64,000 bases of DNA from Candidatus Enterousia sp. Its GTDB lineage: Bacteria > Pseudomonadota > Alphaproteobacteria > Rs-D84. Of the stretch, positions 27,947 to 58,128 are shown piece by piece. The stretch covers positions 4,616 to 68,615 of the forward strand of contig JAZROL010000017.1 in the NCBI GenBank assembly GCA_045648665.1. The letters are read 5' to 3'. Below the pieces are notes generated by a model, which worked only from the letters and a program-made list of their open reading frames with translations, did not search any database and had not been told where the DNA came from. The position numbers and the translations under genes were made by a program. Within the stretch, counting starts at the first letter, position 1; each line of letters begins with the position of its first letter.

Positions 27947-28096
27947 GTGACACATTCCTACATTATATCTTTCATTTTATCAAAAAATATTATATCTTGC
28001 AAGCACTTAAAGGAATCATATATCCAAAAATTTCTTGCAATTTTTATTGACGCCTAATATTATTGTAGGCATAACATAAATAAAGGTTTTTATAAT

Positions 28097-42112: not shown

Positions 42113-44755
42113 TTAAAATTGGATTTCGGTGCATCTTTCGTCCTCAAAATCTTCAGATGCCCATTTACTGCAAGTTCTGTCACTAAATATATGCCACTTT
42201 GTTTTTTCACAGGTCATTTTTGAAACACATTTTTTACAAATACCCGTATCATTATCAAAATCAGTTGTTATCTTTTCACGATAATTCCATTCATTAGCAA
42301 AGAATTCACCATGAGTTTCAGTAACTTTATCCTTATGCGTAGATATAAAAGCTTTGTCATCCTCTCTTTCATTAGAAGCTAACCCTTCATCTATACCTAC
42401 CGCAATGGCTCCTATCGCAGTTGCACCAAAAAAAACAAGACCTATAATACCGGCAACAAAATGAAAAGTATTAGTCCACGCACCAGCAGTAAATACCGTT
42501 GCAACAATCGCCGCCCCAATAACAACTATACCGACAATAATTTGTGCCCATAATGATTGCCAGACGGGGGCTTTGGCAAAGGCGGAAACTGCGGCCAGAT
42601 TTACACAAGCGGCTCGGGCGGCGGCTCTCTTTGCATCTTCACCATTTAACTTTAAATTATTAGCAACTCGTTCATTTACTATCGCTAAATCCATTTGCAT
42701 TTGTTCGCTGTATATATCATACAATTGATAATAATTTTCTTTTGCTTTTAATAATGCGGCATTTGCCAAACTTACACGAATAGTATTTGATAATTTTGGA
42801 AAACGAACTTTGTTATTTTTAAATTGATCTGTTACACCTGGAACCTCGCGACCATTTATGCAATATTGCACAAAATAATCAGATTCCACAGACGATATCA
42901 TTGAATTAATTCCAGATTGCAAATGTTGCAATTCATCCATGACACGTGCTTTTTCTTCTTCTGGGATATAACTGTCTTTGTTTTCTTCCAATGCGGTCAT
43001 ATACGCATCAATATCGATTTTACCGTCGTCGGTTACTTGAATACTTTCCCATTTTATAATGCCGCTGATAACACCCGCAAATGGGGCAACATAACCCAAT
43101 TCTTCACTTTGTGCATTTTGCAAACGCCCCAGCTCATAATCGGAAATATCATTAACGCTGCTGCGACAATTAAACCATTTGAACCCGGCGGTTGAATCTG
43201 GCGAATCCGTAGAATATTCACACACCTGATAACGCAAGGATTGCGCACCTATCTTTTGTCCCAACGCCTGAACCGCGCAATCTTCAACACTGCCACAGGT
43301 TTTACTAACTGAATTTTCCACAGCCAATTCGCAAGTCTGCAACATATCATTATCGATATTCAAAATTATACCCTGGACAATTTGCGCGATATTATCGTAA
43401 ATTTCATCGCCCTGCACTTTTTCGTTACCATATACTTTTTGACAACCGACCAATTTATCATAAGGGCACATACGCATAATTATATTCGTATCCAAACCAA
43501 CACACTGAGAATAATCCGGGCCACATCTGTCCACGCTTTGCATACATTCTTTTAATTCCGCAGTACAAGAATCAACACGCATAGCCGACAATTTAGACAA
43601 CACTGATGGCCACAGCGTTGATAATTGCGGAACCTCGTAACTGCCACCTGTTGCAGCCAAACAAGGTTCCAATTCAACTTTGCACATAGACTTTATTGTT
43701 TCAGGACGTGTCAAACACATATCATACGAATCGTTTCCATCTATGTTGTCTTTGCACGCTTTCACAAAACAATTGGAAATATTTTCCAAACAAGATGTCC
43801 TGATATTCGATTCGGCTTTTGATTCGGCTAACTTTATTTGTGGCGCAGATATTTTTAAGAAAGAATCCCAAACATTATCACGCACAGAAACACATTTGCT
43901 CAAAACCGATTCGCACATTATTTTTTTGCTTTCCAACATATCCATTGTTGATTTAGCAATTATTACCGACGAATTTTCCCCCTGTATTGCAACTGTATTT
44001 GTCACACCAGCATAAATACTTTCTTTTGCAACAGTATCAACACATCCTGTGAAATCAGCACCACATTCCGCGGTAGTTTGCATACATTGTGAAAATTCAT
44101 TTACGCATTGTCCCAGATCATATTTGTTTGACGATTGATATTGTTCCAGCGCGGCTTTGCGAACAGTCGTTTTTGCAGCGGCAGCACGTTGCGAACTTTT
44201 ATTTTTTTCAATCTTCAAAGCATTTTCATACGCATTACAATCAGATTTAACTTTTTGTGCATAAATATTTTTCAACAGCGTAAGTTGCGATTTACATTCT
44301 GGAATTTTTTCAATACAGATATCATGCATTTTTGCACGTAATCTGTCGCCCTGTTCCGAATCGGTGACGGATAAATCAACATCTTCTTCATCTTGATCTG
44401 CGGTAATATCATCATATAGTTGTTGTCCCAATTCACCAAGTTTAATTATTTCGACACTGTTTTCAGTTATTAATTGTGTTTGTGCTTCGGATTTTTTTAT
44501 TTGATTAAATTCAGCATTTAATTCTTTGATTCGATTACTGCATTGGCAACGGCCACCCGAATCGTTATCCAACATACATCCCATATCCATACATGCGGTA
44601 TATTTGTCCTGACAAGAATTTGATGTTGCAGTCGATTCAGAAACTTTTGTTCCACGATTTATAACCGATTGACTGGGGCCACGCGTTGCAGAATAAGTCG
44701 GCATCGCGCAACAAACAAAAAACAGAACTGATAAAAATCTTGTTATCGATTTCAT
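42113..44755 (-). CDS. Cys-rich secreted protein, CMDxFC family paralog P4 (880 aa) with TM hairpin and C-terminal Cys module
   Basis: Signal peptide, CQDKYTACMDMGCMLDNDSGGRCQCSNR and all downstream family motifs. Two hydrophobic segments, then the NEWNY...CTEIQF module. Confidence 0.88.
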   Translation of the reverse strand: MKSITRFLSVLFFVCCAMPTYSATRGPSQSVINRGTKVSESTATSNSCQDKYTACMDMGCMLDNDSGGRCQCSNRIKELNAEFNQIKKSEAQTQLITENSVEIIKLGELGQQLYDDITADQDEEDVDLSVTDSEQGDRLRAKMHDICIEKIPECKSQLTLLKNIYAQKVKSDCNAYENALKIEKNKSSQRAAAAKTTVRKAALEQYQSSNKYDLGQCVNEFSQCMQTTAECGADFTGCVDTVAKESIYAGVTNTVAIQGENSSVIIAKSTMDMLESKKIMCESVLSKCVSVRDNVWDSFLKISAPQIKLAESKAESNIRTSCLENISNCFVKACKDNIDGNDSYDMCLTRPETIKSMCKVELEPCLAATGGSYEVPQLSTLWPSVLSKLSAMRVDSCTAELKECMQSVDRCGPDYSQCVGLDTNIIMRMCPYDKLVGCQKVYGNEKVQGDEIYDNIAQIVQGIILNIDNDMLQTCELAVENSVSKTCGSVEDCAVQALGQKIGAQSLRYQVCEYSTDSPDSTAGFKWFNCRSSVNDISDYELGRLQNAQSEELGYVAPFAGVISGIIKWESIQVTDDGKIDIDAYMTALEENKDSYIPEEEKARVMDELQHLQSGINSMISSVESDYFVQYCINGREVPGVTDQFKNNKVRFPKLSNTIRVSLANAALLKAKENYYQLYDIYSEQMQMDLAIVNERVANNLKLNGEDAKRAAARAACVNLAAVSAFAKAPVWQSLWAQIIVGIVVIGAAIVATVFTAGAWTNTFHFVAGIIGLVFFGATAIGAIAVGIDEGLASNEREDDKAFISTHKDKVTETHGEFFANEWNYREKITTDFDNDTGICKKCVSKMTCEKTKWHIFSDRTCSKWASEDFEDERCTEIQF
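42557..42625 (-). repeat. right arm of perfect 69-bp inverted repeat (inside P4)
   Basis: Reverse complement of 41360-41428. Confidence 0.9.
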
Positions 44756-44764
44756 ATTGTTTTC

Positions 44765-47296
44765 CTAGTATTCAATTTCCTTACATTCTTCTTTTTCATC
44801 ACCCCATTCTTTGCACCATTTGTGTTTAGGTGTATCACATTCCTGCGTTCTTACACACTTAGTACAAACCACTCTGTTTATATCAAACTGCGTAGTCACA
44901 GAACGTTTATAATTCCACGCACTGTGTTGTGAATAACCAACCAACTTTTCGTCACGTCCAGACTTTCTATTTATCTTCCAGTTATTGTTCAATTCTTTAA
45001 TATCTCTGACATCGTCATTTTCACCCAACGCCATACATTTTTCACGTGCAATATCTTCTTTTTTGCGTTGTTCATTTTCTTTATTTACTTTTGCATAACG
45101 CGCAGCCAACGAACTGTTATCATTCACAGAATCTTCATAAACCGTATTATATTTTCTGTAATAATTTCTTTGCACAGACCTTAACGCAGAATTTATAATT
45201 TTTGCACGCGCCATTTGTGTTAAATTAGGAAACTTTGGATTGTCTTTTTTTCCTATAACTTGTTCAAAACCCGAATCGTAAGTCAAACCAGAAACCTGAC
45301 GCCCCGTCATACAAAATTGAATACGAGGATCGGCTTCTATTTCTGCGATTGCGTTTTTAATAGATGTTCCCAACACACCTATTTCGGTTTTAATATTATC
45401 AGCTTCTTTTTTATCAATATCTATCATCACATCCTTGACTTTGTCCATATATTCATCGGCACTGATTATCCCGGACATATCTTCCAACATTTCTACGTTT
45501 TGCCACAATATTTGACCATAAATTATTGACGTAAAAATATGTTTATCATGTTTAGTCAAAGATAAATCAGAATTACGGGATGTCTTTCCTAATTCAATAT
45601 CAGTAATCGCGGATAAATCTTGTTTACAGTTCACATATTTGTGTTCACCATCCGCAGTTTCACAATATTTTATTCCTAATGACCGAGTTCCTAAATCATT
45701 ATCGACTATTAAACCATCGCAATTATTAACATCACCGCACACACGCAACATAGCATCATCAACAGCCTTTTGACAAGCATCAGCCAAACCTTTTTCAACG
45801 GACAACATAACACCCTGGGCAACACGCGCCAAAGTTTCCCGCACATTATAAACTTTACCTTTATAATCACCATAACACGCGGTCAGTTTATCTTCTGGAC
45901 ACATATCGACAACATCTTCATTATCCAACCCGATACATTTTGAATAATCTTCGCCACATCTGTCATCGTCTTGCATACATTGTTTAAATTCTTTGGTACA
46001 TGCATCTGCACGTTCTTTTGCTAATTCCGCCAAGATACCTTTCCAAATACGCGATTTTTCAGGTTTATCATAACTGCCACCCGTTGCCGACAAACAAGGT
46101 TCCAATTCAATTTTACAAAAAGATTTATAATTTTCTGGTTGCGTCAAACACATATCATAAGAACCATCAGGATCTTTCGGATCCATATTTTCACGACATG
46201 CCTTTAAATAACATTCTGCAACAGTAGAAAGACAATTTTCACGCAAACCCGATTCGGCTTTTAATTCCGCAGACTTTATATCGAACGCAGCATCTTGTAA
46301 AAATGAATTCCACACATTATCTTTGACCGATTCGCATTTATCCAAAATATTTTCACACAAAATTTTCTTTGCCGACAAAGAATCCATAGTCGACCCGGAC
46401 AGATTAATGTCCATGCTGCCAACCGTTATAATTTGTGATTCTGCTTTTGCAGCACCTACATTTTCATACGCAGACAAAGTCACACATCCGGTAAAATCAT
46501 TTCCACAACCACCGGTCGTTTTCATACACTGTTTAAATTCCAAAGCACATTTTCCCAAACCATACGAATTAGAATCTTTGAATTGCGCCAACGCAGCATC
46601 ACGAACATTTTTTTGCGCATTATCCAGCTGCACAGTGGCTTCTGATTTTTGCAATTTAATTGCATTTTCAAATCCAATACAATCAGATTTAATTTTTTGC
46701 GCATACAACAATTGCACCATTTCTTTTGACGATGCGCATTTCTTAGGTGTTTGTTCCCAACACATAGAATCAGCAACATTATAAAGTTCATCGCCTTTTT
46801 TATTAGAGATATCATCTTCTAAAACAAAATCATCTTCTTCGTCATCTTCATTGGACGAAAACATATTATTCCAATCACTAAATGATAAAGACTTTTTGTC
46901 CTGTTTATCTTTTTTCTTTAAAACATCTTCGGACATTTTTACAACATCATCGGTTGCTTTGCCTAAATTTACATAATCGGCACCATTTTCAGCAATCAAA
47001 GCCGCCTTATTTTGCATATCCATAATTTCGTTCAGTTGTGTGTATAAACTGTTATATTTATTACTGCATTGGCAACGACCACCAGAAACATTTTCATCCA
47101 TACAAAGCGCATCCATACAACCGAAATACGAATCCTGGCATTCTGTATCAACCGCGGTATTTTCAGCTGCAGAATTGACCTTGGTCCCGGTATTAACAAC
47201 CTTTTGTTTAACCGCAGAACGCGAAACCACCGCACCAAAAGACGAACCCGGCACAACATATAAACATAACAAAAACACTGCGAACAATTTACGCAT
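44765..47296 (-). CDS. Cys-rich secreted protein, CMDxFC family paralog P5 (843 aa)
   Basis: Start at MRKLFAVFLLCLYVVPGSSFG (GGAGAG RBS). CQDSYFGCMDALCMDENVSGGRCQCSNK. 9 bp upstream of P4. Confidence 0.88.
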   Translation of the reverse strand: MRKLFAVFLLCLYVVPGSSFGAVVSRSAVKQKVVNTGTKVNSAAENTAVDTECQDSYFGCMDALCMDENVSGGRCQCSNKYNSLYTQLNEIMDMQNKAALIAENGADYVNLGKATDDVVKMSEDVLKKKDKQDKKSLSFSDWNNMFSSNEDDEEDDFVLEDDISNKKGDELYNVADSMCWEQTPKKCASSKEMVQLLYAQKIKSDCIGFENAIKLQKSEATVQLDNAQKNVRDAALAQFKDSNSYGLGKCALEFKQCMKTTGGCGNDFTGCVTLSAYENVGAAKAESQIITVGSMDINLSGSTMDSLSAKKILCENILDKCESVKDNVWNSFLQDAAFDIKSAELKAESGLRENCLSTVAECYLKACRENMDPKDPDGSYDMCLTQPENYKSFCKIELEPCLSATGGSYDKPEKSRIWKGILAELAKERADACTKEFKQCMQDDDRCGEDYSKCIGLDNEDVVDMCPEDKLTACYGDYKGKVYNVRETLARVAQGVMLSVEKGLADACQKAVDDAMLRVCGDVNNCDGLIVDNDLGTRSLGIKYCETADGEHKYVNCKQDLSAITDIELGKTSRNSDLSLTKHDKHIFTSIIYGQILWQNVEMLEDMSGIISADEYMDKVKDVMIDIDKKEADNIKTEIGVLGTSIKNAIAEIEADPRIQFCMTGRQVSGLTYDSGFEQVIGKKDNPKFPNLTQMARAKIINSALRSVQRNYYRKYNTVYEDSVNDNSSLAARYAKVNKENEQRKKEDIAREKCMALGENDDVRDIKELNNNWKINRKSGRDEKLVGYSQHSAWNYKRSVTTQFDINRVVCTKCVRTQECDTPKHKWCKEWGDEKEECKEIEY

Positions 47297-47434: not shown

Positions 47435-50278
47435 TTAATGAACGCTGACACTTCTAGCCACATCTATCAGGAAGTCCGCACTGTTACCTATCGTCTTCGC
47501 TGCATCTTTTAGGGATTTCTCACTGTTACCTAATAAATCACGTTCACGATTGTATTTAGGCATAGCAACAGTACGGCTGCCATCTTCTACACCTTTTTCA
47601 TCCCAATGCCAACAGCACCCAGTAAGCATATAATCACAAACATGTTTTTTTCTGGTAATCGTACAGGTATATGTTGCAGGATCATACGCAGCAGTTGAAA
47701 ACCAATGCGCAGAGTCTCTCGCGGATCCCACACAACCCGTGCGGAAAAATCCTGTACCTTGTGTAGATGAAAACCCATCAATATCATTGTTTGCTATAGC
47801 AAGCTTCTCACAATAGTCTTTATTTAGTTCATGTTTTTTCTCTGCAACCACACCCTCTATTGATGCTAAACGTTCTGCGACTTTGGCGTAAAGAGCTTCA
47901 ATCTCTGCATCTTTTGCTCTTTCTGCTTTGATATATTGTTCACGCATAACACCCAAAGTTTTTGAAACTAATATATTAGTATACTGTTCCAACAATTCTG
48001 GATATCTTGTACCTCTTGAATCAATATCGTCTCCGTCCGCACCAATATCATACGAGTTTTTTCCACCCCTTGTTGCACTTATACCTTGAATTTTTTTCCC
48101 GTTAAGACATGCACTTACTGTCGCGTCAGATTTCAATATAGCAATCTTTGTGTTTAAAAGATTTGTAAGACCATCTCTTATAGATTCAACACCTGAATCA
48201 TCCGCCTCTGCAAATCCAGCATTTGCTGGGTTGTTTGTCGAAGAGTATTCAAACTTACCCTTATTATACATTACATTGTTAACATTTATACGATTTAACA
48301 AACGAGGTCTGACATTACCCGCTATTATATCCGCTGCTTTAAATGCGTCCGCGGAATTATAACAATTTCCATCTGTTTCGTCTTCTCCATCCAGGCATAA
48401 TTTAACATCCAACAAACCATCAAATGATATATTTCCTAAATCAAGACCTTCACATGTTTCTTCGTCACCACACAACTTAATCATTGCGGTTTTAGCAGCT
48501 TTTTGACATGTTTCCGCTAATTTAGAATCTATCTTTAATGCGTAACCCTGGGCAACCTGGGCTATATATTCACGAACATCTTGATTTTGGCCACCGGCAC
48601 CACGCCCATAACGGTCTTGACATGCCGTCAATTTTTCTTCGGCACACAAATCGACAATCGTATCTGTTGATAAACCAACACACATAGCATAATCTTCGCC
48701 ACAAATGCCTTCTATGCACTGCGTCACTTCTTTTGTACATGCATCAACACGCAAAGCCGACAACATAGCGGTAACACCCTGCCATAATCTGGATTTTTTA
48801 AATCCAGCATCAGATGTTGATTGCCCACCGGTTGCAACTATACATGGATCTAACTTTACTTTACAAGAATCGCGTAATAACCAAGGATCCGCCAAACACA
48901 TATCATAATTTTTCGCGTCGCTGTTTGGGTCAAAACTGGTTGCACAACGTTCTTTGAAACAAGTTGCTACTTCGGAAATACAATTTTTACGCAAATCATC
49001 TTCTGCATTCAATTCCGCACTTTTTAATGCAGGCGCCGCATCACGCAAGAACAAATCCCAAATAGTATCTTTGTATTTCACACAATGTGATAAAACATCA
49101 TCGTCACAATAAACCTTCTTTGCGTTTAATTGATTCATTGTTGACCCGGCCAAAACAATATCAACAACCCCAGAAATAGTTCTGGCTTTCTCAGATTGCT
49201 TTGCTTTTCTTGATGTTTTAGCATTTGATGCATCCGCAGCAGTTTGGATATTTTCTTCGGCCGAAAACTGTACACATCCCGAATAATCCGCACCGCATCC
49301 GGCTGTAGTTTGCATACACTGTGTATATCGGGTTAAACATTGCCCCTGGTTATATTTATTTGCATCCTGAAATTGTTCAAGCGCAGCATCACGCAATGCT
49401 TTTTCCGCGGTTTGTAATTTTTGTGCACTGGCATTTTTTTGCTGCTTCAAACTGTTTTCATACGCAGTACAATCAGATTTAATTTTTTGCTTATATATCA
49501 ATTGCAACATAGATGCTGATTCCTGACATTGTTCCGGGATTTGTGCAGCACACATTTTAGAAGCACTAGCATGTAACGCATCGCCTTTTTTATCTAAAAC
49601 CACAGAACTAGCCACATCAAAAATATCTTCTTCATCATCTTCGAACATAGCATCGTTATTCCATAAATCCAAATTCAATGTTCTGGATGTTTTCCCGTTT
49701 TCTGCCTCGGCAGTTTTACTATTGACAACGGCATCCGCTGCCGCTTTTGCGCGCGCCATAATCTCGTCCGCATTTTCACCCATTTTCAAACGTTCGACAC
49801 CTTCGGTTGCCATAGCATAACTTTGTTCATCCAATTTCATAATCTCTTCTAGAATAGAATCAAATTCAGCATTTTTATTACTGCATTGGCAACGACCACC
49901 CGACGTGTTATCCAACATACAGAAAGAATCCATACATCCAAAATAAGCATCCTGGCATTCCTGATCAACAACAGTATTTGTTGTCGCAGACTGCACTTTT
50001 GTCCCAGCATTGATTACCTTTTGTTTAGTCCCAGCACGCGCAGCAATCGGTCTTGTCGCGGCACGCGCAGTCGCAGGTGCAATCCCAGATGTATTTTTTA
50101 CACCGACATTACGTGCAGCACGTGCAGTTTGCGCTTTCGGTGCAGCCGCTTCCTTTTGTTCAACAGATTGTTCCTGTGAAACAAGGCCACGCGCACTTCT
50201 GCGTTGTGTCGCAGCAAACGCCCCAAAATCAGCCAAAACCAATGAAACAAACAATGGCAAAATTAATAATTTGCGCAT
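47435..50278 (-). CDS. Cys-rich secreted protein, CMDxFC family paralog P6 (947 aa)
   Basis: AAGGAG RBS, signal peptide MRKLLILPLFVSLVLADFGAFA, CQDAYFGCMDSFCMLDNTSGGRCQCSNK and the downstream family motifs. Confidence 0.88.
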   Translation of the reverse strand: MRKLLILPLFVSLVLADFGAFAATQRRSARGLVSQEQSVEQKEAAAPKAQTARAARNVGVKNTSGIAPATARAATRPIAARAGTKQKVINAGTKVQSATTNTVVDQECQDAYFGCMDSFCMLDNTSGGRCQCSNKNAEFDSILEEIMKLDEQSYAMATEGVERLKMGENADEIMARAKAAADAVVNSKTAEAENGKTSRTLNLDLWNNDAMFEDDEEDIFDVASSVVLDKKGDALHASASKMCAAQIPEQCQESASMLQLIYKQKIKSDCTAYENSLKQQKNASAQKLQTAEKALRDAALEQFQDANKYNQGQCLTRYTQCMQTTAGCGADYSGCVQFSAEENIQTAADASNAKTSRKAKQSEKARTISGVVDIVLAGSTMNQLNAKKVYCDDDVLSHCVKYKDTIWDLFLRDAAPALKSAELNAEDDLRKNCISEVATCFKERCATSFDPNSDAKNYDMCLADPWLLRDSCKVKLDPCIVATGGQSTSDAGFKKSRLWQGVTAMLSALRVDACTKEVTQCIEGICGEDYAMCVGLSTDTIVDLCAEEKLTACQDRYGRGAGGQNQDVREYIAQVAQGYALKIDSKLAETCQKAAKTAMIKLCGDEETCEGLDLGNISFDGLLDVKLCLDGEDETDGNCYNSADAFKAADIIAGNVRPRLLNRINVNNVMYNKGKFEYSSTNNPANAGFAEADDSGVESIRDGLTNLLNTKIAILKSDATVSACLNGKKIQGISATRGGKNSYDIGADGDDIDSRGTRYPELLEQYTNILVSKTLGVMREQYIKAERAKDAEIEALYAKVAERLASIEGVVAEKKHELNKDYCEKLAIANNDIDGFSSTQGTGFFRTGCVGSARDSAHWFSTAAYDPATYTCTITRKKHVCDYMLTGCCWHWDEKGVEDGSRTVAMPKYNRERDLLGNSEKSLKDAAKTIGNSADFLIDVARSVSVH

Positions 50279-50447: not shown

Positions 50448-50864
50448 ATGAAAGTTAGAAAAAATACATATGAAATATCGACTCAATTTTTAAATTATGA
50501 ATTGATATGTTTTTTTACATACCAAAAATCTACCCCTTTGCCAATCCTATCCATTAACGGGAACAAAGCTTATATGGAATATTCAGCAATACCAACTATA
50601 TCATTTCCAAATCCTGCAACGTTTGAAATGGTATCTGTATTATGCAATGAATACACTCCAAAAACCAAATTTTCCGCAACCATAGTCGAATATGTAGACA
50701 ATTGCAATCAACCAATTTTATATTTATTTCCGGACGGTACAATTTTCGAAAAAACTGAAAATGCATCCAAGAAAATGAACAATCTTATGCGACGCGATTT
50801 GATATATCAACAAAGATTGCGTCAAAATATGCTTAAAGAAGCAAAACAAAAATATCGCAGATAA
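50448..50864 (+). CDS. hypothetical protein (138 aa)
   Basis: ORF followed by a terminator. No motif recognised. Confidence 0.4.
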   Translation: MKVRKNTYEISTQFLNYELICFFTYQKSTPLPILSINGNKAYMEYSAIPTISFPNPATFEMVSVLCNEYTPKTKFSATIVEYVDNCNQPILYLFPDGTIFEKTENASKKMNNLMRRDLIYQQRLRQNMLKEAKQKYRR

Positions 50865-50912: not shown

Positions 50913-51467
50913 TTATTTTCCTGTTGCGCGACGTTTAACAGCCACAGTCTTTTTTGCAGCAGTCGCTTTTGGTGCAGCCGCTTTCTTTTCAACAGACGCA
51001 GCCTTTTTCGCCTTTGGCGCAGCAGTTTTTTTAACTTCTTCTTTTACAGTTGGTTCTTCGACTGGTGCAGCAACAGATTTTGGTGCAACTTTTTTTGCAT
51101 TTTCATCTCTGTCAACCAATTCGATAATCGCCATAGGCGCAGCATCACCATAACGGAAACCCGCTTTCAAAACACGAGTATAACCGCCAGGACGTTTTGC
51201 ATAACGAGGTCCCAACACAGCAAACAATTTTTTCACTGTTTTTTCGCAACCGTTGCCCAATTCAGATGCAGTCAAACGACGATTTGCAACTGTATCGACT
51301 TTCGCACGGGTAATCAATTTTTCGACTACACTGCGTAAATCTTTTGCTTTTGGCAAAGTTGTTTTAATTTGTTCTTTTTCAATCAAATTTTTCGCCAAAC
51401 CAATAAACAAGGCTTTGCGAGCATTAGTGTCGCGATTGAAAGTACGACCTGCTTTCATATGTCTCAT
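50913..51467 (-). CDS. rplQ: 50S ribosomal protein L17 with Ala/Lys/Pro-rich C-terminal extension
   Basis: [21 protein letters not shown]...[10 protein letters not shown]...; ~45 extra residues rich in A/K/P. Confidence 0.93.
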
Positions 51468-51679: not shown

Positions 51680-52708
51680 TTATTTGTATGGGTCTTCGTA
51701 TTTTTTAGCCAATTCCGCAACATTTTCTGGTGGCCATCCTGGAACTTCCATTCCAAGGGACAATCCCATTGCTTCCAATTGGACCTTGATTTCATTCAAA
51801 GATTTACGGCCGAAATTAGGTGTTTTCAACATATCATTTTCTGTTTTTTGCACCAATTCGCCCAACCAATTGATTTTGTCGTTTTTCAGACAGTTTGTTG
51901 CACGAACCGACAATTCTAATTCATCAACATGTTTCAACAATTTTGGATCGAAAGGCAAAGTATCTTTTGCTTTTTCTTCGTCGGAATCAGCGCTGATTTG
52001 TGTTGGATCTTCGAAATTGATAAATACACTCAGTTGATCCGTCAAAATACGCGCTGCATATGCAATCGCATCTTCTGGGGATACAGAACCATTTGTTTTA
52101 ACAACCAATTCCAATTTGTCATAATCAGTACTTTGTCCCACACGTGTTTGTGAAACATTTGACGCAACGTTCAAAATTGGCGAATAGATAGAATCGACAG
52201 GAATTGTACCCAAAGGCAAATTATTTGCATTCATATTTGCAGGTACATATCCGCGACCAGACGCCAAAGTGATTTCCATATCAAAAACAGCCCCAGCATC
52301 CAAAGTACAAATTTGGGCGTCTTTGTTCATAACTTCGACATTAGAAGACGTTTCAATCATAGCAGCCGTCACAACAGCAGGACCTTTTACTTTAATAGCA
52401 GCCTTGTGTTGTCCTTCGGTCAAAGCTTTGAAATAAACACCTTTTAAATTCAAAATAATATCCGTAATATCTTCACGAACACCAGGCAAAGTTGTGAATT
52501 CATGTTGCACACCGTCAATTTTAACATATATAGGTGCACAGCCTTGTAAAGAAGACAACAACACACGACGCAAAGCCGTACCCAATGTCAACCCAAAGCC
52601 TTTTTCCAAAGGTTCTGCGATTAATGTTGCAATATTAGGATTGTTTTCATCGACTTTGATGCTTAATTTTTTTGGCTTAATCAAAGTCATCCAGTTTTTT
52701 TCGATCAT
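51680..52708 (-). CDS. rpoA: DNA-directed RNA polymerase subunit alpha
   Basis: Canonical N-terminal domain ([22 protein letters not shown]) and C-terminal domain ([12 protein letters not shown]). Confidence 0.97.
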
Positions 52709-52778
52709 TTTTACACCTTATGGCTTAGTTTATTATTTTCACCATTTTTGCGACATACCTTTCGATACGCGCCTCGCG

Positions 52779-52807
52779 ATTGTAAAAGAAAAAATATCAA
52801 AAGTCAA
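52779..52807 (-). promoter_or_regulatory. sigma70-like promoter upstream of rpoA
   Basis: Minus strand TTGACT, 17-nt spacer, TACAAT, ~70 nt upstream of the rpoA ATG. Confidence 0.5.
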
Positions 52808-52865
52808 ATATTTTAATAAATTCTCCCAATATTAGAAGAGAACCGATATATTGATTTTACAGCCC

Positions 52866-55112
52866 CTAAACAGGACATATATCTCTCTTCAAAGGAGGAA
52901 TTGTCATATTTTGTCTTTCTATATCATTTTGATAAATATTTATTTTCGTTGGCCACTCAAAACATGTATTTTCATCGATGCAATACTTAGCCACAGTTGG
53001 AACACATTCATCACAACCTTTGGCCCCCTTGTTCACAGTAGTTGTTCCGTCTGGACAAGAATGACACTTTCCTTCATCATCGTTGATGCAATAGTAATTA
53101 CCATCTTTTGTACCATCAGACGCGGGTCTTGTTCCAGTTGAATAAGTCCCCCTATTACATTGATACTGCTTTGCAATAACCCTTTCTCCAACTGTTTCTT
53201 TTATACAACAAGCCCCAGGTGGACAAGTCGTGCATTGTTCTTTGCCCGGACCGAAAGAAAATGTTCCCTCGGCACATGGTTGACATAAAGCATTATGAGT
53301 ATCATTACCACTGCGGTATGTTCCGTCCGGACATTTTTCACAAGATCCTCTTGAATCGGATTGAACCCAACCGTACCCTCCATCACACAACTTTGCACAG
53401 TATTCGCGTTTTTCACCTTTTTCTATCACATAAATAGAATCAGCTGAACATGGCAAGACACATCTTATAAACTCTGTCCTTTCACCATCGTCACCCCAAG
53501 TATACAATGCTACCTTGTCACGCGGACACGATTTACAACTAGTTGCGCCGGGTTCTTCTGTATATTTTGTGTCACCGCATTCAATACATTTTCCGTCACT
53601 TGCATATGTTCCAATTGGACATATATAACAACCGTCCTGTGTATCATTTACAATCGACCCAACAGGACAATTTGTACAAGTACCATCGCTATCCCTATAT
53701 TGATTCAAACCACACAGATTTGGCGTACAAGCACCCGGACCCACGGCACCAACTTCTGGATTATAGGTACCATTACCACAACGTTCACAAACAGGAATAC
53801 CATCTTCATTAATTTTCCCGTATGTATTCACAGGACATGCCGTACACGCAACCACAGGGAAAGTTTCTTTTATAACATATAGAGGTTTTTCACTACAATC
53901 TGTCACATTAGGATTACAAAGATTTGTGCACTTTTGTACTTCACAATTATCCGAGCTTGTCGATGAATTAGAAAAACAATGGCTTCTAACAAGGTCCAAC
54001 TCAGACCACCAAGAATCAAAATCATCAGAAGATTTACCATCACTACTACCTTCTGTTTCATTGCCACAATCTTGTTGTGAATTCGGATCACAAAATTCTT
54101 TGGATTTCACACCACCATTTGAATATGTTCCCACCTGACAACGAAACGCGTTACCACCCACACAATAATGCCCTTCCGGACAAGGTTGTTTTGACCGTTC
54201 TTTTCCAGGCTCTTCACACCAATAACCACTTGGGCATTGTTTACATTGGGCCCAACCCTCTTCTGAATATTCACCTTCACCGCATGGTGTACAATTTCCT
54301 ATGCCTGTATACGATTTTTCTGTTCCCGCAGGACACTTCGTTCCTATCCCTTTATTATCACAGGTATAACCGGCGGGGCAATCATACCGCCCCTGTTCCA
54401 GTCTATTTGTGTGTGGAACCTCAAAACACCCACCGGGACAATAATATGCACCATTACCACCACAAGGTCTACTTTCCGGACGCTCATCTGTGGTCATAGC
54501 AACAAAATACCCAGGCGCACAATAAAATGGAAAATATTGTTTTTCGCCTTTTTCATTATTTGTATAACAATCGTATTGCAGCCATGTTCCCACCTCAGAA
54601 TTCGGGTACTGAGCAGGACATCTGTAAATACCAGCATCATCTGATGTTCCACATAGACCTTCACCTGTGTTTACTGTACAAATATCATTTACATCACAAT
54701 CCTCCCCCCAATAATTCTCATGATAGTAGTTTACCTTTTTTCCGTCTTTACAATTTCTTCTATAAGAATAAGTGTTATCTTTGTTCTTTTTTAGGGTATA
54801 TATAGGAGTTTCTTTTTTATCATAACCTTCAGTATTACAACCTATAAACCACTCACATGGAGAACCATATGCACACCAATTTTCGACATCATTTTTATAA
54901 ATCTCATCTTGGTCATTTCCATGTTTATCCAACGCACCATCATCACCTGGGGCACCTTTACACCAACACCCTTTGGGACAATCAGGGGTTTGATTTGTTA
55001 AACAATATTGCCTTGGGCCAGAACTATAACATTCCCCAATTCCCATTGCAGAATTGTACACGCAAAACAAACAAATAAAAACACTTAAAAATGCCAATCG
55101 CAAAAATTTCAT
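52866..55112 (-). CDS. secreted protein made of eukaryote-like CxxCPxGxY cysteine repeats (748 aa)
   Basis: Start at MKFLRLAFLSVFICLF (AAGGAG RBS). Repeats such as CTPCGEGEYSEEGWAQCKQCPSGYWC, CTACPVNTYGK...CERCGNGTYNP, CTNCPVGS...CYICPIGTYASDGKCIECGDTKY, CEKCPDGTYRSG...CQPCAEGTF, CHSCPDGTT. Confidence 0.85.
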   Translation of the reverse strand: MKFLRLAFLSVFICLFCVYNSAMGIGECYSSGPRQYCLTNQTPDCPKGCWCKGAPGDDGALDKHGNDQDEIYKNDVENWCAYGSPCEWFIGCNTEGYDKKETPIYTLKKNKDNTYSYRRNCKDGKKVNYYHENYWGEDCDVNDICTVNTGEGLCGTSDDAGIYRCPAQYPNSEVGTWLQYDCYTNNEKGEKQYFPFYCAPGYFVAMTTDERPESRPCGGNGAYYCPGGCFEVPHTNRLEQGRYDCPAGYTCDNKGIGTKCPAGTEKSYTGIGNCTPCGEGEYSEEGWAQCKQCPSGYWCEEPGKERSKQPCPEGHYCVGGNAFRCQVGTYSNGGVKSKEFCDPNSQQDCGNETEGSSDGKSSDDFDSWWSELDLVRSHCFSNSSTSSDNCEVQKCTNLCNPNVTDCSEKPLYVIKETFPVVACTACPVNTYGKINEDGIPVCERCGNGTYNPEVGAVGPGACTPNLCGLNQYRDSDGTCTNCPVGSIVNDTQDGCYICPIGTYASDGKCIECGDTKYTEEPGATSCKSCPRDKVALYTWGDDGERTEFIRCVLPCSADSIYVIEKGEKREYCAKLCDGGYGWVQSDSRGSCEKCPDGTYRSGNDTHNALCQPCAEGTFSFGPGKEQCTTCPPGACCIKETVGERVIAKQYQCNRGTYSTGTRPASDGTKDGNYYCINDDEGKCHSCPDGTTTVNKGAKGCDECVPTVAKYCIDENTCFEWPTKINIYQNDIERQNMTIPPLKRDICPV

Positions 55113-55143
55113 TAAAAATCCAATCTCCTTTCTAACGAAATCA

Positions 55144-55172
55144 ATTATAATGTGTTTAATATTTTCGCGCAA
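55144..55172 (-). promoter_or_regulatory. sigma70-like promoter for the inserted Cys-repeat gene
   Basis: Minus strand TTGCGC, 17-nt spacer, TATAAT, 32 nt upstream of the ATG. Confidence 0.55.
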
Positions 55173-55182
55173 GGTAAAAAAC

Positions 55183-55208
55183 AAAAAAACACCGCATAAA
55201 ATGCGGTG
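55183..55208 (-). terminator. rho-independent terminator directly after rpsK
   Basis: CACCGCAT aaa ATGCGGTG with a 7-nt T-run on the minus strand. Confidence 0.7.
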
Positions 55209-55233
55209 CAATTTTTTGTTCACAAACGCAGTA

Positions 55234-55617
55234 TTACACACGACGGACTTTCTTTGGACGGCACCCATTGTGTGGAATACGTGTCGTGTCTGTAATAGAT
55301 TGAACAACCAATCCTGCATTTGCCAAACCACGTACGGCAGATTCACGACCCTGGCCAATTCCGCGCATCAAAACATCGATAGTTTGCATACCCATTTCGG
55401 CAACTTTTTTGCCAACCGCATCTGCAACAACTGTTGCAGCGTACGGGGTAGATTTTTTCGCGCCTTTGAAATTATTAGCCCCAGCGGTTGCCCATGTCAA
55501 AACAGCACCCGTTTGGTCTGTGATTGTAATACGTGTATTGTTATTAGTAGCGACCACATGTGCAATACCATGTGATACTTTTTTAATTACTTTCTTTTTT
55601 GATTTTGTAACTGCCAT
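55234..55617 (-). CDS. rpsK: 30S ribosomal protein S11
   Basis: GIAHVVATNNNTRITITD...; conserved S11 sequence. Confidence 0.97.
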   Translation of the reverse strand: MAVTKSKKKVIKKVSHGIAHVVATNNNTRITITDQTGAVLTWATAGANNFKGAKKSTPYAATVVADAVGKKVAEMGMQTIDVLMRGIGQGRESAVRGLANAGLVVQSITDTTRIPHNGCRPKKVRRV

Positions 55618-55683: not shown

Positions 55684-56061
55684 TTATTTACCCTTGGTTG
55701 CGGATCCTGCAACAACAACGCGTTTTCCTTTGCGGGTACGTGCGTTTGTTTGTGTGCGTTGACCACGAACCGGTAAACGGTTACGGTGACGAATTCCGCG
55801 ATAAGTTTTCAAATCTTGCAAACGTTTAATATTCATTGCAACTTCGCGACGAACATCACCTTCTACTTTGAAATTTTGTTCAATATAATTTGAAATTTTG
55901 ATAACATCCTCGTCCGTTAAATCTTTTGCACGCAGACCGTCTTTCAATTTCAATGCAGAACAAATCTGTGCCGATTTAGCCGGGCCAATACCATGAATGT
56001 ATTGCAACGCAACTTCTATGCGTTTTTCACTTGGAATGTTAACACCTGCTATACGTGCCAT
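55684..56061 (-). CDS. rpsM: 30S ribosomal protein S13
   Basis: [26 protein letters not shown]. Confidence 0.97.
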
Positions 56062-56217
56062 CTTTTATTTTCCTTTTGTTTTATTATCTTTGGAATGTTG
56101 CCATTCCGCCCTGCACTCGTAAAAATCCACACGTTTTTTCGAATGCTTTCGATTTTTGTAATTGGTATTATACACACGCCAAAACAAAAATCAAATCTTG
56201 TTTATTATGTTTCCCAC

Positions 56218-57534
56218 TTATCCGCGGAAACGACCCTTTTGATGTGTCTTTGCTACAACACCGCTGTATTGTTTTTCAACCAAATAAGATTTTACCTGGT
56301 TCATAGTATCCAAAACAACGCCCGCCACGATTAAAACACTGGTTCCACCAATCATCAAAGGCATACCTGCGCGAGTATTCAAAATAATAGGCAAAACGCA
56401 AACTACTATCAAATACACAACACCTATCGCTGTCACTTTGGACACAACATCATCTAAATAATGCATAGTTTGTTCACCCGGACGAACACCCGGTATATAT
56501 CCACCCATGTTTTTCAAATTGTTGCTGGTTTCTTCGGAATTGAATACCACAGCAGTTTGGAAATACGCAAAAAATGCGATTAACACTGTGTACAAAGCCA
56601 TATAAGACCAAGTACCATAGGTAAAGAATCCCAGTATATGTTGCACTGTCAAATTTTCACTTTGCACAAAACGTTGCACAAACGCAGGCAACATCATAAT
56701 TGATGCCGCAAACACAGGCCCCATAACACCGGACATATTTACTTTGATAGGTAAATAAGAAACGTTCGTATTCATAACACCGTTTGCCATTGCCTGACGT
56801 GGATAAAGAATTTGAATACGACGTTGCGCTTGTTCCATAAATGCTATCAACGCAACAATGCCCACTACAAACCCCAATACCAAAGCAATCATTGCAGGCG
56901 ACATTTGGCCAACACCCGCCAATGAAAACAACTTTGCTATACCACCAGGAACTTCCGCGATAATTCCAGCGAAAATCAAAAGCGATGCGCCCTGCCCTAT
57001 GCCACGTGACGTAACCTGTTCGGCCAACCACATAACAAATACAGTTCCGCCAACCAGCGCAATTATCGCAGACAATTCAAACGCAAAACCTGGATTTGCA
57101 ACCGCCGCTATACCATTAACAGGTGCCATTGATTCCAAACCACGAACCACTGCCCAACCCTGGACAACAGCCAATAACACCGCCAAATAACGTGTATATT
57201 GATTGATTTTAATACGCCCAGATTCGCCCTCTTTACGTAAATCAGTCAAAGATTTACTGGTCGCTGTTAATAACTGAATAACGATTGATGCCGAGATATA
57301 TGGGAAAATATTCAAAGCCAAAACCGACATACGTGATAAAGAACCACCGGAAAACATATCAAACATTCCCATCATTCCATTATCGCCATTAAATAAATGC
57401 AAAACAGCACTGGCATTAACACCAGGCAATGGAATAAAAGAACCTATACGATAAACAATCAACGCACCTAATGTGAACAAGATACGTTTTTGTAAATCTG
57501 ACAATTTTCCAAAAATATTTTTAAAAATACTCAT
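56218..57534 (-). CDS. secY: preprotein translocase subunit SecY
   Basis: 10-TM protein with conserved SecY motifs (GSFIPLPGV, IFPYISASI). Confidence 0.97.
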   Translation of the reverse strand: MSIFKNIFGKLSDLQKRILFTLGALIVYRIGSFIPLPGVNASAVLHLFNGDNGMMGMFDMFSGGSLSRMSVLALNIFPYISASIVIQLLTATSKSLTDLRKEGESGRIKINQYTRYLAVLLAVVQGWAVVRGLESMAPVNGIAAVANPGFAFELSAIIALVGGTVFVMWLAEQVTSRGIGQGASLLIFAGIIAEVPGGIAKLFSLAGVGQMSPAMIALVLGFVVGIVALIAFMEQAQRRIQILYPRQAMANGVMNTNVSYLPIKVNMSGVMGPVFAASIMMLPAFVQRFVQSENLTVQHILGFFTYGTWSYMALYTVLIAFFAYFQTAVVFNSEETSNNLKNMGGYIPGVRPGEQTMHYLDDVVSKVTAIGVVYLIVVCVLPIILNTRAGMPLMIGGTSVLIVAGVVLDTMNQVKSYLVEKQYSGVVAKTHQKGRFRG

Positions 57535-58049: not shown

Positions 58050-58128
58050 TTCTTTTTCCTTTTTGTCCTATGACTATAAGTATAGTCTGTTTCGCACATA
58101 ATTCAAGATTACGTACTCGGTTTATTTT

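What the first reader, a model, noticed from the sequence alone, without database searches (positions are those of the whole stretch)
52866..55208. Eukaryote-like CxxCPxGxY repeat protein gene inserted as a self-contained unit between rpsK and rpoA
The rpsM-rpsK-rpoA-rplQ block is normally contiguous. Here a rho-independent terminator (55183-55208) follows rpsK. Next comes a near-consensus promoter (TTGCGC-17-TATAAT) and an AAGGAG RBS, driving a 748-aa signal-peptide protein. rpoA then has its own TTGACT-17-TACAAT promoter.

The protein is built almost entirely of repeats of the form CxxCPxGxY / CxxCxxGxY. Examples: CKQCPSGYWC, CTACPVNTYG, CERCGNGTYNP, CYICPIGTYASDGKCIECGDTKY, CEKCPDGTYRSG, CQPCAEGTFS, CHSCPDGTT.

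This pattern is what I associate with furin-like/GCC2-GCC3 repeats, Giardia VSPs and ciliate surface antigens, not with typical bacterial proteins. It suggests horizontal acquisition or host mimicry, placed in one of the most conserved loci of the genome.
Basis: partly seen in the sequence, partly recalled or inferred. Interest (0 to 1): 0.65.

Follow-up and report, generated by a model that had tools for sequence, protein, structure and literature searches.

The report
Variable cysteine-rich secreted protein cassette
A small-genome gut bacterium (Candidatus Enterousia) keeps a secreted, cysteine-rich protein built from a repeat otherwise typical of eukaryotic cell surfaces in a self-contained slot between two ribosomal-operon genes, and this slot holds a different gene in almost every related species.

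Summary
Window 52866..55112 (-) encodes a 748-aa protein with a signal peptide and 9.8% Cys. It scores above threshold for Pfam Ephrin_rec_like (formerly GCC2_GCC3). It lies between rpsK and rpoA, with its own terminator, promoter and RBS.

The organism is a Candidatus Enterousia (order Rs-D84), a gut alphaproteobacterium with a genome under 1 Mb that is thought to depend on a partner organism.

The "recently inserted foreign gene" reading is not supported:
- Codon usage and GC3 are native.
- All 11 relatives with rpoA at least 89% identical carry a member of the same family in the same gap.
- rpoA has its own conserved promoter and leader across the genus.

What is unusual is the locus. The rpsK-rpoA gap ranges from 24 bp in outgroups to more than 9.7 kb and holds at least 13 unrelated gene families. 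Similarity to relatives stops one base after the rpsK stop codon and resumes at the rpoA promoter.

Against the closest relative, flanking genes give dS 0.03-0.28 and dN at most 0.012. The cassette gene gives dN 0.46 and dS 1.3, with the Cys scaffold conserved. Within one species the allele is identical in five samples.

Best reading: a secreted, disulfide-laddered rod protein used for contact or recognition, kept as ancient divergent alleles in an insulated hotspot. The function is inferred, not shown.

The parts
55234..55617 (-). rpsK (S11), upstream conserved flank
   Evidence: ORF. 100% aa identity to L001. Similarity to all relatives ends at 55233, one base after the stop codon.
52821..55232 (-). 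Hypervariable cassette: everything between the rpsK stop codon and the rpoA promoter
   Evidence: blastn against L001, L084, L004, L006 and L008 loses alignment at 55232-55233, and against L007 and L088 at 55183 and 55077. Alignment resumes at 52744-52821. In L001 only about 300 bp inside the cassette align, at 75%.
55179..55209 (-). Intrinsic terminator after rpsK
   Evidence: 9-pair stem, 5 G-C pairs, loop of 3, T-rich tail. Conserved in L088 and L007. L084 has an analogous but unrelated terminator.
55144..55172 (-). Cassette promoter TTGCGC-17-TATAAT
   Evidence: Read from the sequence. -35 matches 3 of 6, -10 matches 6 of 6. Conserved as TTGCGN-17-TATAAT/TATGAT in L088 and L007.
55125..55130 (-). 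RBS AAGGAG
   Evidence: 12 nt upstream of the ATG at 55112.
52866..55112 (-). Gene for the 748-aa secreted Cys-rich repeat protein
55041..55112 (-). Signal peptide (residues 1-24, MKFLRLAFLSVFICLFCVYNSAMG). The cleavage site is approximate.
   Evidence: It is the only hydrophobic segment in the protein. It aligns with the signal peptides of family members, which end just before the conserved CYSS motif. No lipobox and no C-terminal transmembrane segment.
54618..55040 (-). N-terminal Cys-rich module (residues 25-165). Its first ~90 residues are shared with a small set of other proteins.
   Evidence: Residues 1-91 match P0008, P0019, P0034, P0057, P0083 and P0085 (alignment). P0002 and P0004 lack this module.
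54078..54545 (-). Repeat block 1 (residues ~190-345)
   Evidence: Pfam stretches. Motifs at 274 and 290. This is the stretch best conserved with P0002.
53853..54077 (-). Linker (residues 346-420), mainly acidic and Ser-rich, largely absent from P0002 and P0004
   Evidence: Alignment A2.
52968..53852 (-). Repeat block 2 (residues 421-715)
   Evidence: Best Pfam stretch is 485-529. AlphaFold2 model with pLDDT 85-97 over residues ~424-634. Foldseek matches.
52869..52967 (-). Conserved C-terminal tail (CFEWPTKINIYQNDIERQN...)
   Evidence: A Phe/Tyr-x-Trp-Pro tail is conserved in L001, L084, L006, L048 and L088. A looser form occurs in the 112-aa L009 version. See also the alignment.
52779..52807 (-). 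rpoA promoter TTGACT-17-TACAAT
   Evidence: Conserved in nearly all Enterousia loci. Absent in outgroups L080-L082, where rpoA follows rpsK within 24-45 bp.
52709..52778 (-). Conserved rpoA 5' leader: a hairpin of variable sequence followed by the near-invariant box GGYGAAAATRATAAACTAAGC
   Evidence: No Rfam family matches it.
51680..52708 (-). rpoA, downstream conserved flank

Best explanation
The gene encodes a Sec-exported protein that is soluble or surface-attached. Its mature part is an elongated stack of small Cys-knotted beta-hairpin units of the Ephrin_rec_like / TNFR-like type. I infer that it acts outside the cytoplasm as a contact or recognition protein, for example an adhesin or coat component. 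The bacterium (Candidatus Enterousia, order Rs-D84) is predicted to depend on a partner organism, so the protein would face whatever partner cell or host surface it lives on.

The gene is not a recent import. It occupies a long-standing, transcriptionally insulated slot. In this genus the r-protein superoperon is split after rpsK, and rpoA has its own promoter and structured leader. A gene placed between them, with its own terminator and promoter, therefore has no polar effect on rpoA.

Across the genus this slot is a hotspot holding many different gene families, many of them with signal-peptide-like N-termini. In the window's subclade it always holds a member of this Cys-rich family. The alleles are extremely old and divergent: the Cys scaffold and the C-terminal tail are kept, while loops, repeat number and N-terminal modules differ. 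Their modular make-up suggests exchange or shuffling by recombination, but this was not tested.

Shown: the anatomy, domain family, fold class, position, hotspot behaviour, allele divergence and clonal stability.

Inferred: export beyond the inner membrane, disulfide formation, the binding function, and recombination as the replacement mechanism.
For: Domain and fold:
- Pfam PF07699, E=3e-14, above the cut-off.
- An alignment-based AlphaFold2 model is confident over residues ~424-634.
- Its best Foldseek matches are Chlamydomonas mastigoneme Mst1, ELAPOR1, TNFR-family domains and EphB6. PDB sequence search also finds Mst1.

Export:
- The only hydrophobic segment is the N-terminal signal peptide.
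- All family members start with one.

Organism:
- rpoA is 80-92% identical to many Enterousia genome bins.
- Published work describes genomes under 1 Mb, no TCA cycle or respiration, and a predicted partner-dependent lifestyle (PMC12306168).

Resident, not recent:
- GC3 is 0.25 and the codon-usage distance 0.117, both within the range of other window genes.
- Family members occupy the same gap in L001, L084, L088/L089, L004, L006, L007, L008, L011 and L048. L009 carries a minimal 112-aa form.

Hotspot:
- The gap runs from 24 bp to more than 9.7 kb and holds at least 13 gene families.
- Boundaries are sharp at 55233 and about 52820.
- rpsK is inverted or more than 10 kb away in about 12 loci.

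Insulation:
- Terminator and promoters are present.
- The rpoA promoter and leader are conserved across the genus.

Old alleles:
- Against L001, flanking genes give dS 0.03-0.28 and dN at most 0.012. The cassette gene gives dN 0.46 and dS 1.34.
- More than 50 Cys columns are invariant among the three closest alleles, with indels that add or remove Cys-bearing repeat segments.
- The 90% identity clusters hold 356 rpoA, 750 rpsK and 275 secY sequences, but this allele is a singleton.
- Only two near-full-length homologs exist among 1.84 billion representative proteins.

Stable within a clone:
- The 749-aa allele is 100% identical at nucleotide level in five contigs, at least four of them from different samples.
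Against: - There is no expression data. No RNA run holds the sequence.
- No anchor, secretion-system signal or outer-membrane domain was recognised, so localisation beyond the periplasm is a guess.
- The organism is an anaerobe said to lack a respiratory chain. It is unclear how about 35 disulfides would form. No Dsb genes were looked for outside the window, and the Cys could bind metal instead.
- Overall dN/dS is about 0.35, so positive selection is not demonstrated.
- Divergence falls to background exactly at the cassette edges, with no gradient of hitch-hiked divergence in the flanks. This is not the simplest expectation for homologous-recombination swaps.
- Foldseek TM-scores are low (0.1-0.2), as expected for flexible rods. 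The fold match therefore rests on local similarity.
Confidence: 0.55

Rival explanations
1. One reading: a recent horizontal acquisition from a eukaryote, or a host-mimicry gene, dropped as a unit into an otherwise contiguous rpsK-rpoA junction.
For: - The domain is described as having emerged in ancient eukaryotes, with rare bacterial cases attributed to transfer (PMC6993872).
- Nearly all non-family HMMER hits are giant multi-repeat proteins. The only named one among the ten looked up is from Blastocystis. One hit lies in a eukaryote-like gene context.
- All top structural matches are eukaryotic.
Against: - Codon usage and GC3 are native.
- The same family fills the same gap in 11 related genomes.
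- Allele dS of 1.3-1.8 implies long residence.
- The rpoA promoter and leader exist even in genomes with a gap of about 100-200 bp.
- No integrase, att-like repeats or transposase were found.
- An ancient transfer of the repeat module from a eukaryote is not excluded.
Confidence: 0.12
2. A structural or metal-binding envelope protein, such as a coat layer or a periplasmic Zn/Fe-binding protein, whose diversity reflects relaxed constraint rather than recognition.
For: - CxxC-rich proteins can coordinate metals; Giardia VSPs are reported to bind zinc (my own knowledge).
- The window also holds seven large signal-peptide proteins with 3-5% Cys, so the envelope looks generally Cys-rich.
- dN/dS is 0.35.
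Against: - The Cys pattern and predicted fold match disulfide-laddered extracellular domains.
- Relaxed constraint does not explain the strict conservation of more than 50 Cys and the C-terminal tail.
Confidence: 0.15
3. A decoy receptor: a TNFR-like ligand trap for a host or protist signalling protein, analogous to the TNFR homologs of poxviruses.
For: Foldseek matches RANK, TNFR2, CD40, DR6 and 4-1BB with probability 0.8-0.99. The related L004 protein weakly hits TNFR_c6 and TNFR_ELAPOR1.
Against: - The window protein has no above-threshold TNFR Pfam hit.
- The similarity is generic to Cys-ladder rods.
- Alleles are too divergent for a conserved ligand.
Confidence: 0.04
4. Programmed antigenic variation, through a diversity-generating retroelement, gene conversion from silent copies, or phase variation.
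For: Extreme diversity on a conserved scaffold resembles variant surface protein systems. One distant relative (L061) has a reverse transcriptase in the gap.
Against: - No template/variable repeat pair and no DNA repeats in or around the gene.
- No other copy of the family in the 64-kb window.
- The 749-aa allele is nucleotide-identical across five contigs, at least four of them from different samples.
Confidence: 0.03
5. An assembly chimera or contamination by eukaryotic DNA.
For: The source is a metagenome-assembled contig.
Against: - The same architecture appears in independent assemblies from many studies.
- Bacterial terminator, promoter, RBS and signal peptide are present.
- Composition is native.
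Confidence: 0.01

Closest known systems
Ephrin_rec_like / GCC2_GCC3 repeat proteins (Pfam PF07699): Chlamydomonas mastigoneme Mst1, ELAPOR1, the Eph receptor Cys-rich region, giant protist surface proteins such as Blastocystis KAK8815864.1
   Same: Same repeat family by HMM, above threshold. Same CxxCxxGxY spacing. Predicted beta-hairpin Cys-ladder rod. Extracellular context with a signal peptide.
   Different: Bacterial host. Much shorter, with about 10 units rather than tens. Combined with lineage-specific N-terminal and C-terminal modules. Encoded at a single variable chromosomal slot.
Giardia variant-specific surface proteins (VSPs)
   Same: About 10% Cys, many CxxC motifs, a signal peptide, a hypervariable body with a conserved C-terminal end, and extreme allelic or paralog diversity.
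   Different: No PF03302 hit. No C-terminal transmembrane helix or CRGKA tail. One locus rather than about 200 genes. No sign of switching, since alleles are clonally stable.
TNF-receptor superfamily Cys-rich domains, and their viral decoy homologs
   Same: Local fold similarity (Foldseek probability 0.8-0.99).
   Different: No above-threshold TNFR Pfam match for the window protein. No evidence of a ligand.
Eukaryote-like proteins of host-associated bacteria (ankyrin, LRR, TPR and similar repeats in Legionella, Amoebophilus and sponge symbionts; from my own knowledge)
   Same: A eukaryote-typical extracellular repeat in a partner-dependent bacterium with a reduced genome.
   Different: A different repeat class. 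As far as my literature searches show, this class has not been described as expanded in a bacterial lineage. It carries a Sec signal rather than an effector-type secretion signal.
Chromosomal gene-flux hotspots and surface-antigen loci flanked by conserved core genes, such as O-antigen and capsule loci (from my own knowledge)
   Same: A fixed interval between two core genes with different gene content in each lineage, sharp boundaries, old divergent alleles and no mobile-element genes in most cases.
   Different: The interval lies inside the ribosomal-protein/rpoA superoperon. It encodes proteins rather than polysaccharide pathways. It is tied to a genus-specific dedicated rpoA promoter and leader.

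Membership tests
Ephrin_rec_like (PF07699, formerly GCC2_GCC3) | Profile-HMM score above the curated gathering threshold | tested here: met
   52.9 bits against a cut-off of 23.1, E=3e-14, 5 stretches. Also met in the gap proteins of L004, L006, L007 and L008.
Ephrin_rec_like (PF07699, formerly GCC2_GCC3) | Tandem units with the CxxC-x2-G-x-Y/F spacing | tested here: met
   8 strict motifs and 14 CxxC. Cys columns are invariant or nearly so in a 26-row alignment with repeat stretches from other proteins.
Ephrin_rec_like (PF07699, formerly GCC2_GCC3) | Fold similar to solved members | tested here: met
   The model (pLDDT 85-97 over residues ~424-634) matches Mst1, ELAPOR1 and EphB6 with Foldseek probability 0.8-1.0. 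TM-scores are low because the proteins are long flexible rods.
Ephrin_rec_like (PF07699, formerly GCC2_GCC3) | Cysteines actually form disulfides | not testable with these tools
   Needs biochemistry.
Giardia VSP (PF03302) | Profile-HMM match | tested here: not met
   No PF03302 hit at E<=1.
Giardia VSP (PF03302) | C-terminal transmembrane helix with a CRGKA tail | tested here: not met
   No hydrophobic segment other than the signal peptide. The C-terminus reads ...RQNMTIPPLKRDICPV.
TNFR Cys-rich domain (PF00020) | Profile-HMM match above threshold | tested here: not met
   Not listed for the window protein. The only related hit is TNFR_ELAPOR1_6th at E=0.2.
Diversity-generating retroelement target | Nearby reverse transcriptase and a template/variable repeat pair | tested here: not met
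   No DNA repeats of that kind. The allele is identical across samples. The window was not scanned exhaustively for a reverse transcriptase.
Mobile genomic island | Integrase or transposase, and flanking direct repeats | tested here: not met
   No flanking repeats. The cassette holds one gene only. Composition is native.
Core-gene-flanked gene-flux hotspot | The same interval between two core genes carries different accessory genes in different genomes | tested here: met
   At least 13 families, gap from 24 bp to more than 9.7 kb across about 60 loci. Boundaries are sharp.
Known anti-phage defence systems (PADLOC) and NCBIfam families | Profile-HMM match | tested here: not met
   No hits.

The most novel reading that the evidence does not exclude
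Enterousia uses the rpsK|rpoA junction as a dedicated, insulated expression site for its partner-recognition protein. In one subclade that protein is a bacterial counterpart of protist variant surface proteins, built from a repeat module acquired long ago from a gut eukaryote. The allele at this one site would determine which partner cell or host the bacterium can attach to. The gene would then be a handle for finding the unknown partner of a widespread, uncultured gut lineage.
Probability: 0.2. Interest if true: 0.75.

Novelty: new variant of a known kind. Interest (0 to 1): 0.55.

Why it matters
- Enterousia (order Rs-D84) is common in ruminant, horse, bird, human and termite guts. It is uncultured and has no known partner. 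A secreted recognition protein that differs by lineage is the most direct lead to that partner.
- The locus shows that the most conserved gene cluster in bacteria can host a hypervariable slot once it is transcriptionally split. This is a natural insulated insertion site.
- It adds a bacterial lineage in which a eukaryote-typical Cys-ladder repeat has become a diversified family. That bears on how such modules move between domains of life.

Tried and rejected
- Single-sequence AlphaFold2 of the full protein gave pLDDT 36 and was unusable. It was replaced by an alignment-based model of residues 415-748.
- The word-indexed protein search found only 2 homologs. The exhaustive HMMER search was needed.
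- A scan of JGI metagenome contigs with the three-allele alignment found one weak hit.
- No DNA run holds more than 8% of the region's words, and no RNA run is listed. Transcription could not be tested.
- Rfam has no family for the rpoA leader. RNAalifold on a MAFFT alignment missed the variable hairpin, so per-sequence folding was used instead.
- NCBIfam and PADLOC gave nothing.
- Literature searches for Enterousia, Rs-D84, the Pfam names and rpsK/rpoA hypervariability found no description of this family or hotspot.
- Rejected after consideration: mobile element, DGR, assembly chimera, recent HGT. Reasons are given under the rival explanations.
Full report
**1. What is in the sequence**

On the minus strand the window reads secY (56218-57534), rpsM (55684-56061), rpsK (55234-55617), a 2.4-kb interval, rpoA (51680-52708) and rplQ (50913-51467).

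The interval contains, in order:
- an intrinsic terminator directly after rpsK: 9-bp stem at 55209-55189 plus a T-run;
- TTGCGC-17-TATAAT (55172-55144);
- AAGGAG (55130-55125);
- an ATG at 55112 that opens a 748-codon frame ending at 52866.

The longest possible ORF, and the 800-aa public gene call P0001, start inside rpsK and are over-extended. Homologs begin at the equivalent of the ATG at 55112.

rpoA is preceded by TTGACT-17-TACAAT (52807-52779).

The protein has one hydrophobic segment, its N-terminal signal peptide. It has 73 Cys (9.8%), 14 CxxC and 8 strict CxxC..G.Y-type motifs. Pfam gives Ephrin_rec_like (PF07699, the former GCC2_GCC3) at E=3e-14, 52.9 bits against a cut-off of 23.1, in 5 stretches.

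The -35 box matches the consensus in only 3 of 6 positions. The repeats cover about 60% of the protein rather than nearly all of it.

**2. Whose genome it is**

rpoA is 80-92% identical to about 80 metagenome-assembled genomes labelled Candidatus Enterousia, Alphaproteobacteria or Rickettsiales. They come from cattle, sheep, goat, yak, horse, chicken, human and termite guts.

Enterousia belongs to the order Rs-D84. Its genomes are below 1 Mb and lack the TCA cycle, respiration and standard transporters. The authors propose an obligate symbiont or parasite lifestyle (PMC12306168). Members occur in both flagellate-bearing and flagellate-free termites (PMC11257099).

**3. The protein's relatives and fold**

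An exhaustive HMMER search of 1.84 billion representative proteins gave 910 hits. Only two are near-full-length: P0002 and P0004.

Almost all other hits are proteins of about 1,000 to nearly 8,000 aa with many matched stretches, that is, generic repeat matches. Ten of the non-self hits were looked up, and the only one with a name is a 4,710-aa Blastocystis protein. Another sits among WD40 and ankyrin genes on a gene-poor contig that looks eukaryotic.

A separate small set of proteins shares only the first ~90 residues (P0008, P0019, P0034, P0057, P0083, P0085).

A single-sequence structure prediction failed (pLDDT 36). With a 26-row alignment of repeat stretches, residues ~424-634 reached pLDDT 85-97.

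Foldseek against the PDB returned only eukaryotic extracellular Cys-rich rods: Chlamydomonas mastigoneme Mst1, ELAPOR1, many TNF-receptor family members and EphB6. Probabilities are 0.8-1.0. TM-scores are low, as expected for long flexible rods. A sequence search of the PDB also found only Mst1.

The literature treats this domain as eukaryotic in origin, with rare bacterial cases ascribed to transfer (PMC6993872).

**4. The position is conserved and the content is not**

P0002, P0004 and P0085 all lie between rpsK and rpoA in related contigs (L001, L084, L088/L089).

Among the GTDB representatives, every locus with rpoA at least 89% identical has a Cys-rich relative in the gap:
- L004, L006, L007 and L008 score above threshold for Ephrin_rec_like.
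- L011 is a family member by BLAST clustering and weak BLAST similarity to the window protein.
- L048 and L009 are minimal versions of about 100 aa. They consist of a signal peptide, one repeat unit and the C-terminal tail.

Other Enterousia clades hold unrelated genes in the gap:
- a small signal-peptide protein family in 24 loci;
- large Cys-containing secreted proteins;
- a predicted hydrolase and glycosyltransferases;
- in one termite-gut genome, a reverse transcriptase, a DNA methylase and a ParB-CE protein.

The gap ranges from 24-45 bp in the outgroups to more than 9.7 kb. In about 12 loci rpsK is no longer within 10 kb upstream of rpoA or is inverted.

At the DNA level, similarity between the window and relatives stops at 55232-55233, one base after the rpsK stop. 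It resumes at about 52820, just upstream of the rpoA -35 box. In L088 and L007 the shared stretch extends through the terminator. In L088 it continues through the promoter, RBS and signal peptide.

**5. Why a gene can sit here**

An alignment of the 160 nt before rpoA shows a conserved TTGACT-17-TAtAAT promoter. It is followed by a hairpin whose sequence differs between species while the pairing is kept. Most of the 78 sequences fold into a 6-14-bp stem, with mean z-score -1.7.

After the hairpin comes a near-invariant box, GGYGAAAATRATAAACTAAGC, and then the RBS.

The box and RBS are present even in genomes with gaps of only about 100-200 bp. The promoter is recognisable in L015, L055 and L071 but not in L063, L074 and L083. 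The whole element is absent in the outgroups (L080-L082), where rpoA follows rpsK directly.

The operon split is therefore a genus-level trait that precedes any particular cassette. It makes the interval a place where genes can be added or replaced without polar effects. That is my inference.

**6. How the alleles differ**

The closest relative is L001, with rpsK 100% and rpoA 98.5% aa identity. Against it, rpsK, rpsM, secY, rpoA and rplQ give dS 0.03-0.28 and dN 0-0.012. The cassette gene gives dN 0.46 and dS 1.34. Against L084 it gives dN 0.63 and dS 1.79.

The raised dS means the alleles are much older than the surrounding chromosome. They are not merely fast-evolving in place.

In the three-way alignment more than 50 Cys, many Gly/Pro and the C-terminal CF(S/E)WP..INIY.ND.E.QN tail are invariant. 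The loops between Cys, Cys-bearing repeat segments, the linker at 346-420 and the N-terminal module all differ. This points to a maintained scaffold.

The gene's GC3 (0.25) and codon usage are typical of the genome.

In the public collection the 90% identity clusters of rpoA, rpsK and secY hold 356, 750 and 275 sequences. This allele, P0002 and the neighbouring 947-aa protein are singletons.

On short time scales nothing changes. Five contigs carry identical or nearly identical rpoA sequences (at most 1 nt difference), and at least four of them come from different samples. All carry a 749-aa allele without a single nucleotide difference. The 134-aa gene of another species is present at the same position and length in all ten contigs listed, out of 20 that carry that rpoA.

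There are no DNA-level repeats, template/variable pairs or flanking repeats in the window's cassette. Programmed variation is therefore unlikely.

**7. Interpretation**

The best-supported reading is a Sec-exported, Cys-laddered rod protein that faces the outside. It is held as ancient divergent alleles in an insulated hotspot of a partner-dependent gut bacterium. This pattern is usual for molecules that mediate or suffer recognition.

The mosaic make-up supports module shuffling among family members. The N-module is shared with the L088-type proteins, the body with the L001/L084-type, and the C-tail across the family.

The eukaryote-typical nature of the repeat is confirmed. An ancient origin from a gut eukaryote is plausible but untested.

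Function, localisation, disulfide chemistry in an anaerobe and the replacement mechanism remain inferences. No transcript data exist for this sequence.

**8. Novelty**

Searches of the paper library for Enterousia, Rs-D84, the Pfam names and rpsK/rpoA hypervariability found no description of this protein family, of the hotspot or of the rpoA leader.

Each ingredient is of a known kind: eukaryote-like repeat proteins in symbionts, and core-flanked variable loci. The combination and its place inside the r-protein/rpoA cluster are a new variant.

Noticed in passing
window 52709-52780 (-), and the same position in about 80 loci: A conserved rpoA 5' leader. It has a hairpin that differs in sequence between species while the pairing is kept, then the near-invariant box GGYGAAAATRATAAACTAAGC before the RBS. 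No Rfam family matches it. It may be a new leader or mRNA-stabilising element.
   Followed up: partly
window 23258-25735, 25754-27955, 28446-30743 (+), 38159-40267, 42113-44755, 44765-47296, 47435-50278: Seven large (700-950 aa) signal-peptide proteins with 3-5% Cys. The three tested (880, 857 and 947 aa) have no significant Pfam match, and the 947-aa one has no NCBIfam match. Several share an N-terminal GTKV motif. Together they fill about a quarter of the window in a genome under 1 Mb. The 947-aa one also diverges fast (dN 0.13, dS 0.67 against L001).
   Followed up: partly
window 56029-56137 (-): A weak match to Rfam Alpha_RBS (RF00140, the S4-binding leader of the alpha operon) upstream of rpsM. 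It scores 31.7 bits, below the gathering score of 38.
   Followed up: no
L084 9858-9890 and 12025-12053: A G+C-rich palindromic element of about 30 nt (CCCCAnTGGGGsCGrATTTAGTATCTGGA) flanks the Cys-rich gene on both sides in this relative only. Similar short palindromes lie nearby.
   Followed up: partly
L061 1160-8576 (rpsK-rpoA gap of a termite-gut relative): Here the gap holds a reverse transcriptase (RVT_1), an N6/N4 DNA methylase and a ParB-CE protein. This is defence or mobile-element-like cargo rather than secreted proteins.
   Followed up: no
L069, L070, L077; L017, L019, L022, L023, L026, L032, L042, L045, L078: In these genomes rpsK lies downstream of rpoA on the opposite strand, or is not within 10 kb upstream. 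The junction is therefore also a rearrangement breakpoint.
   Followed up: no
L085-L087 (P0019): A 309-aa protein sharing the N-terminal module lies elsewhere in the genome, next to and divergent from a MacB-type ABC transporter, a membrane-fusion protein and an outer-membrane factor. This could be a route out of the periplasm.
   Followed up: no
window 58050-58128: There is no rpmD (L30) gene between rpsE and rplO, and no adk between secY and rpsM. A more distant Enterousia (L093) has L30 at that spot, and L084 has an unannotated 99-aa ORF there.
   Followed up: no
window 50448-50864 (+): A 138-aa ORF with no family match lies on the opposite strand between rplQ and the 947-aa gene. It is conserved in L001 but absent in L084.
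   Followed up: no
L002 (contig of 1.18 Mb carrying P0003): A distant 639-aa relative sits next to a 2,427-aa protein with faint Ephrin_rec_like hits and a MINDY-type deubiquitinase gene. The contig is of unknown affiliation, so another organism may hold an expansion of this repeat.
   Followed up: no
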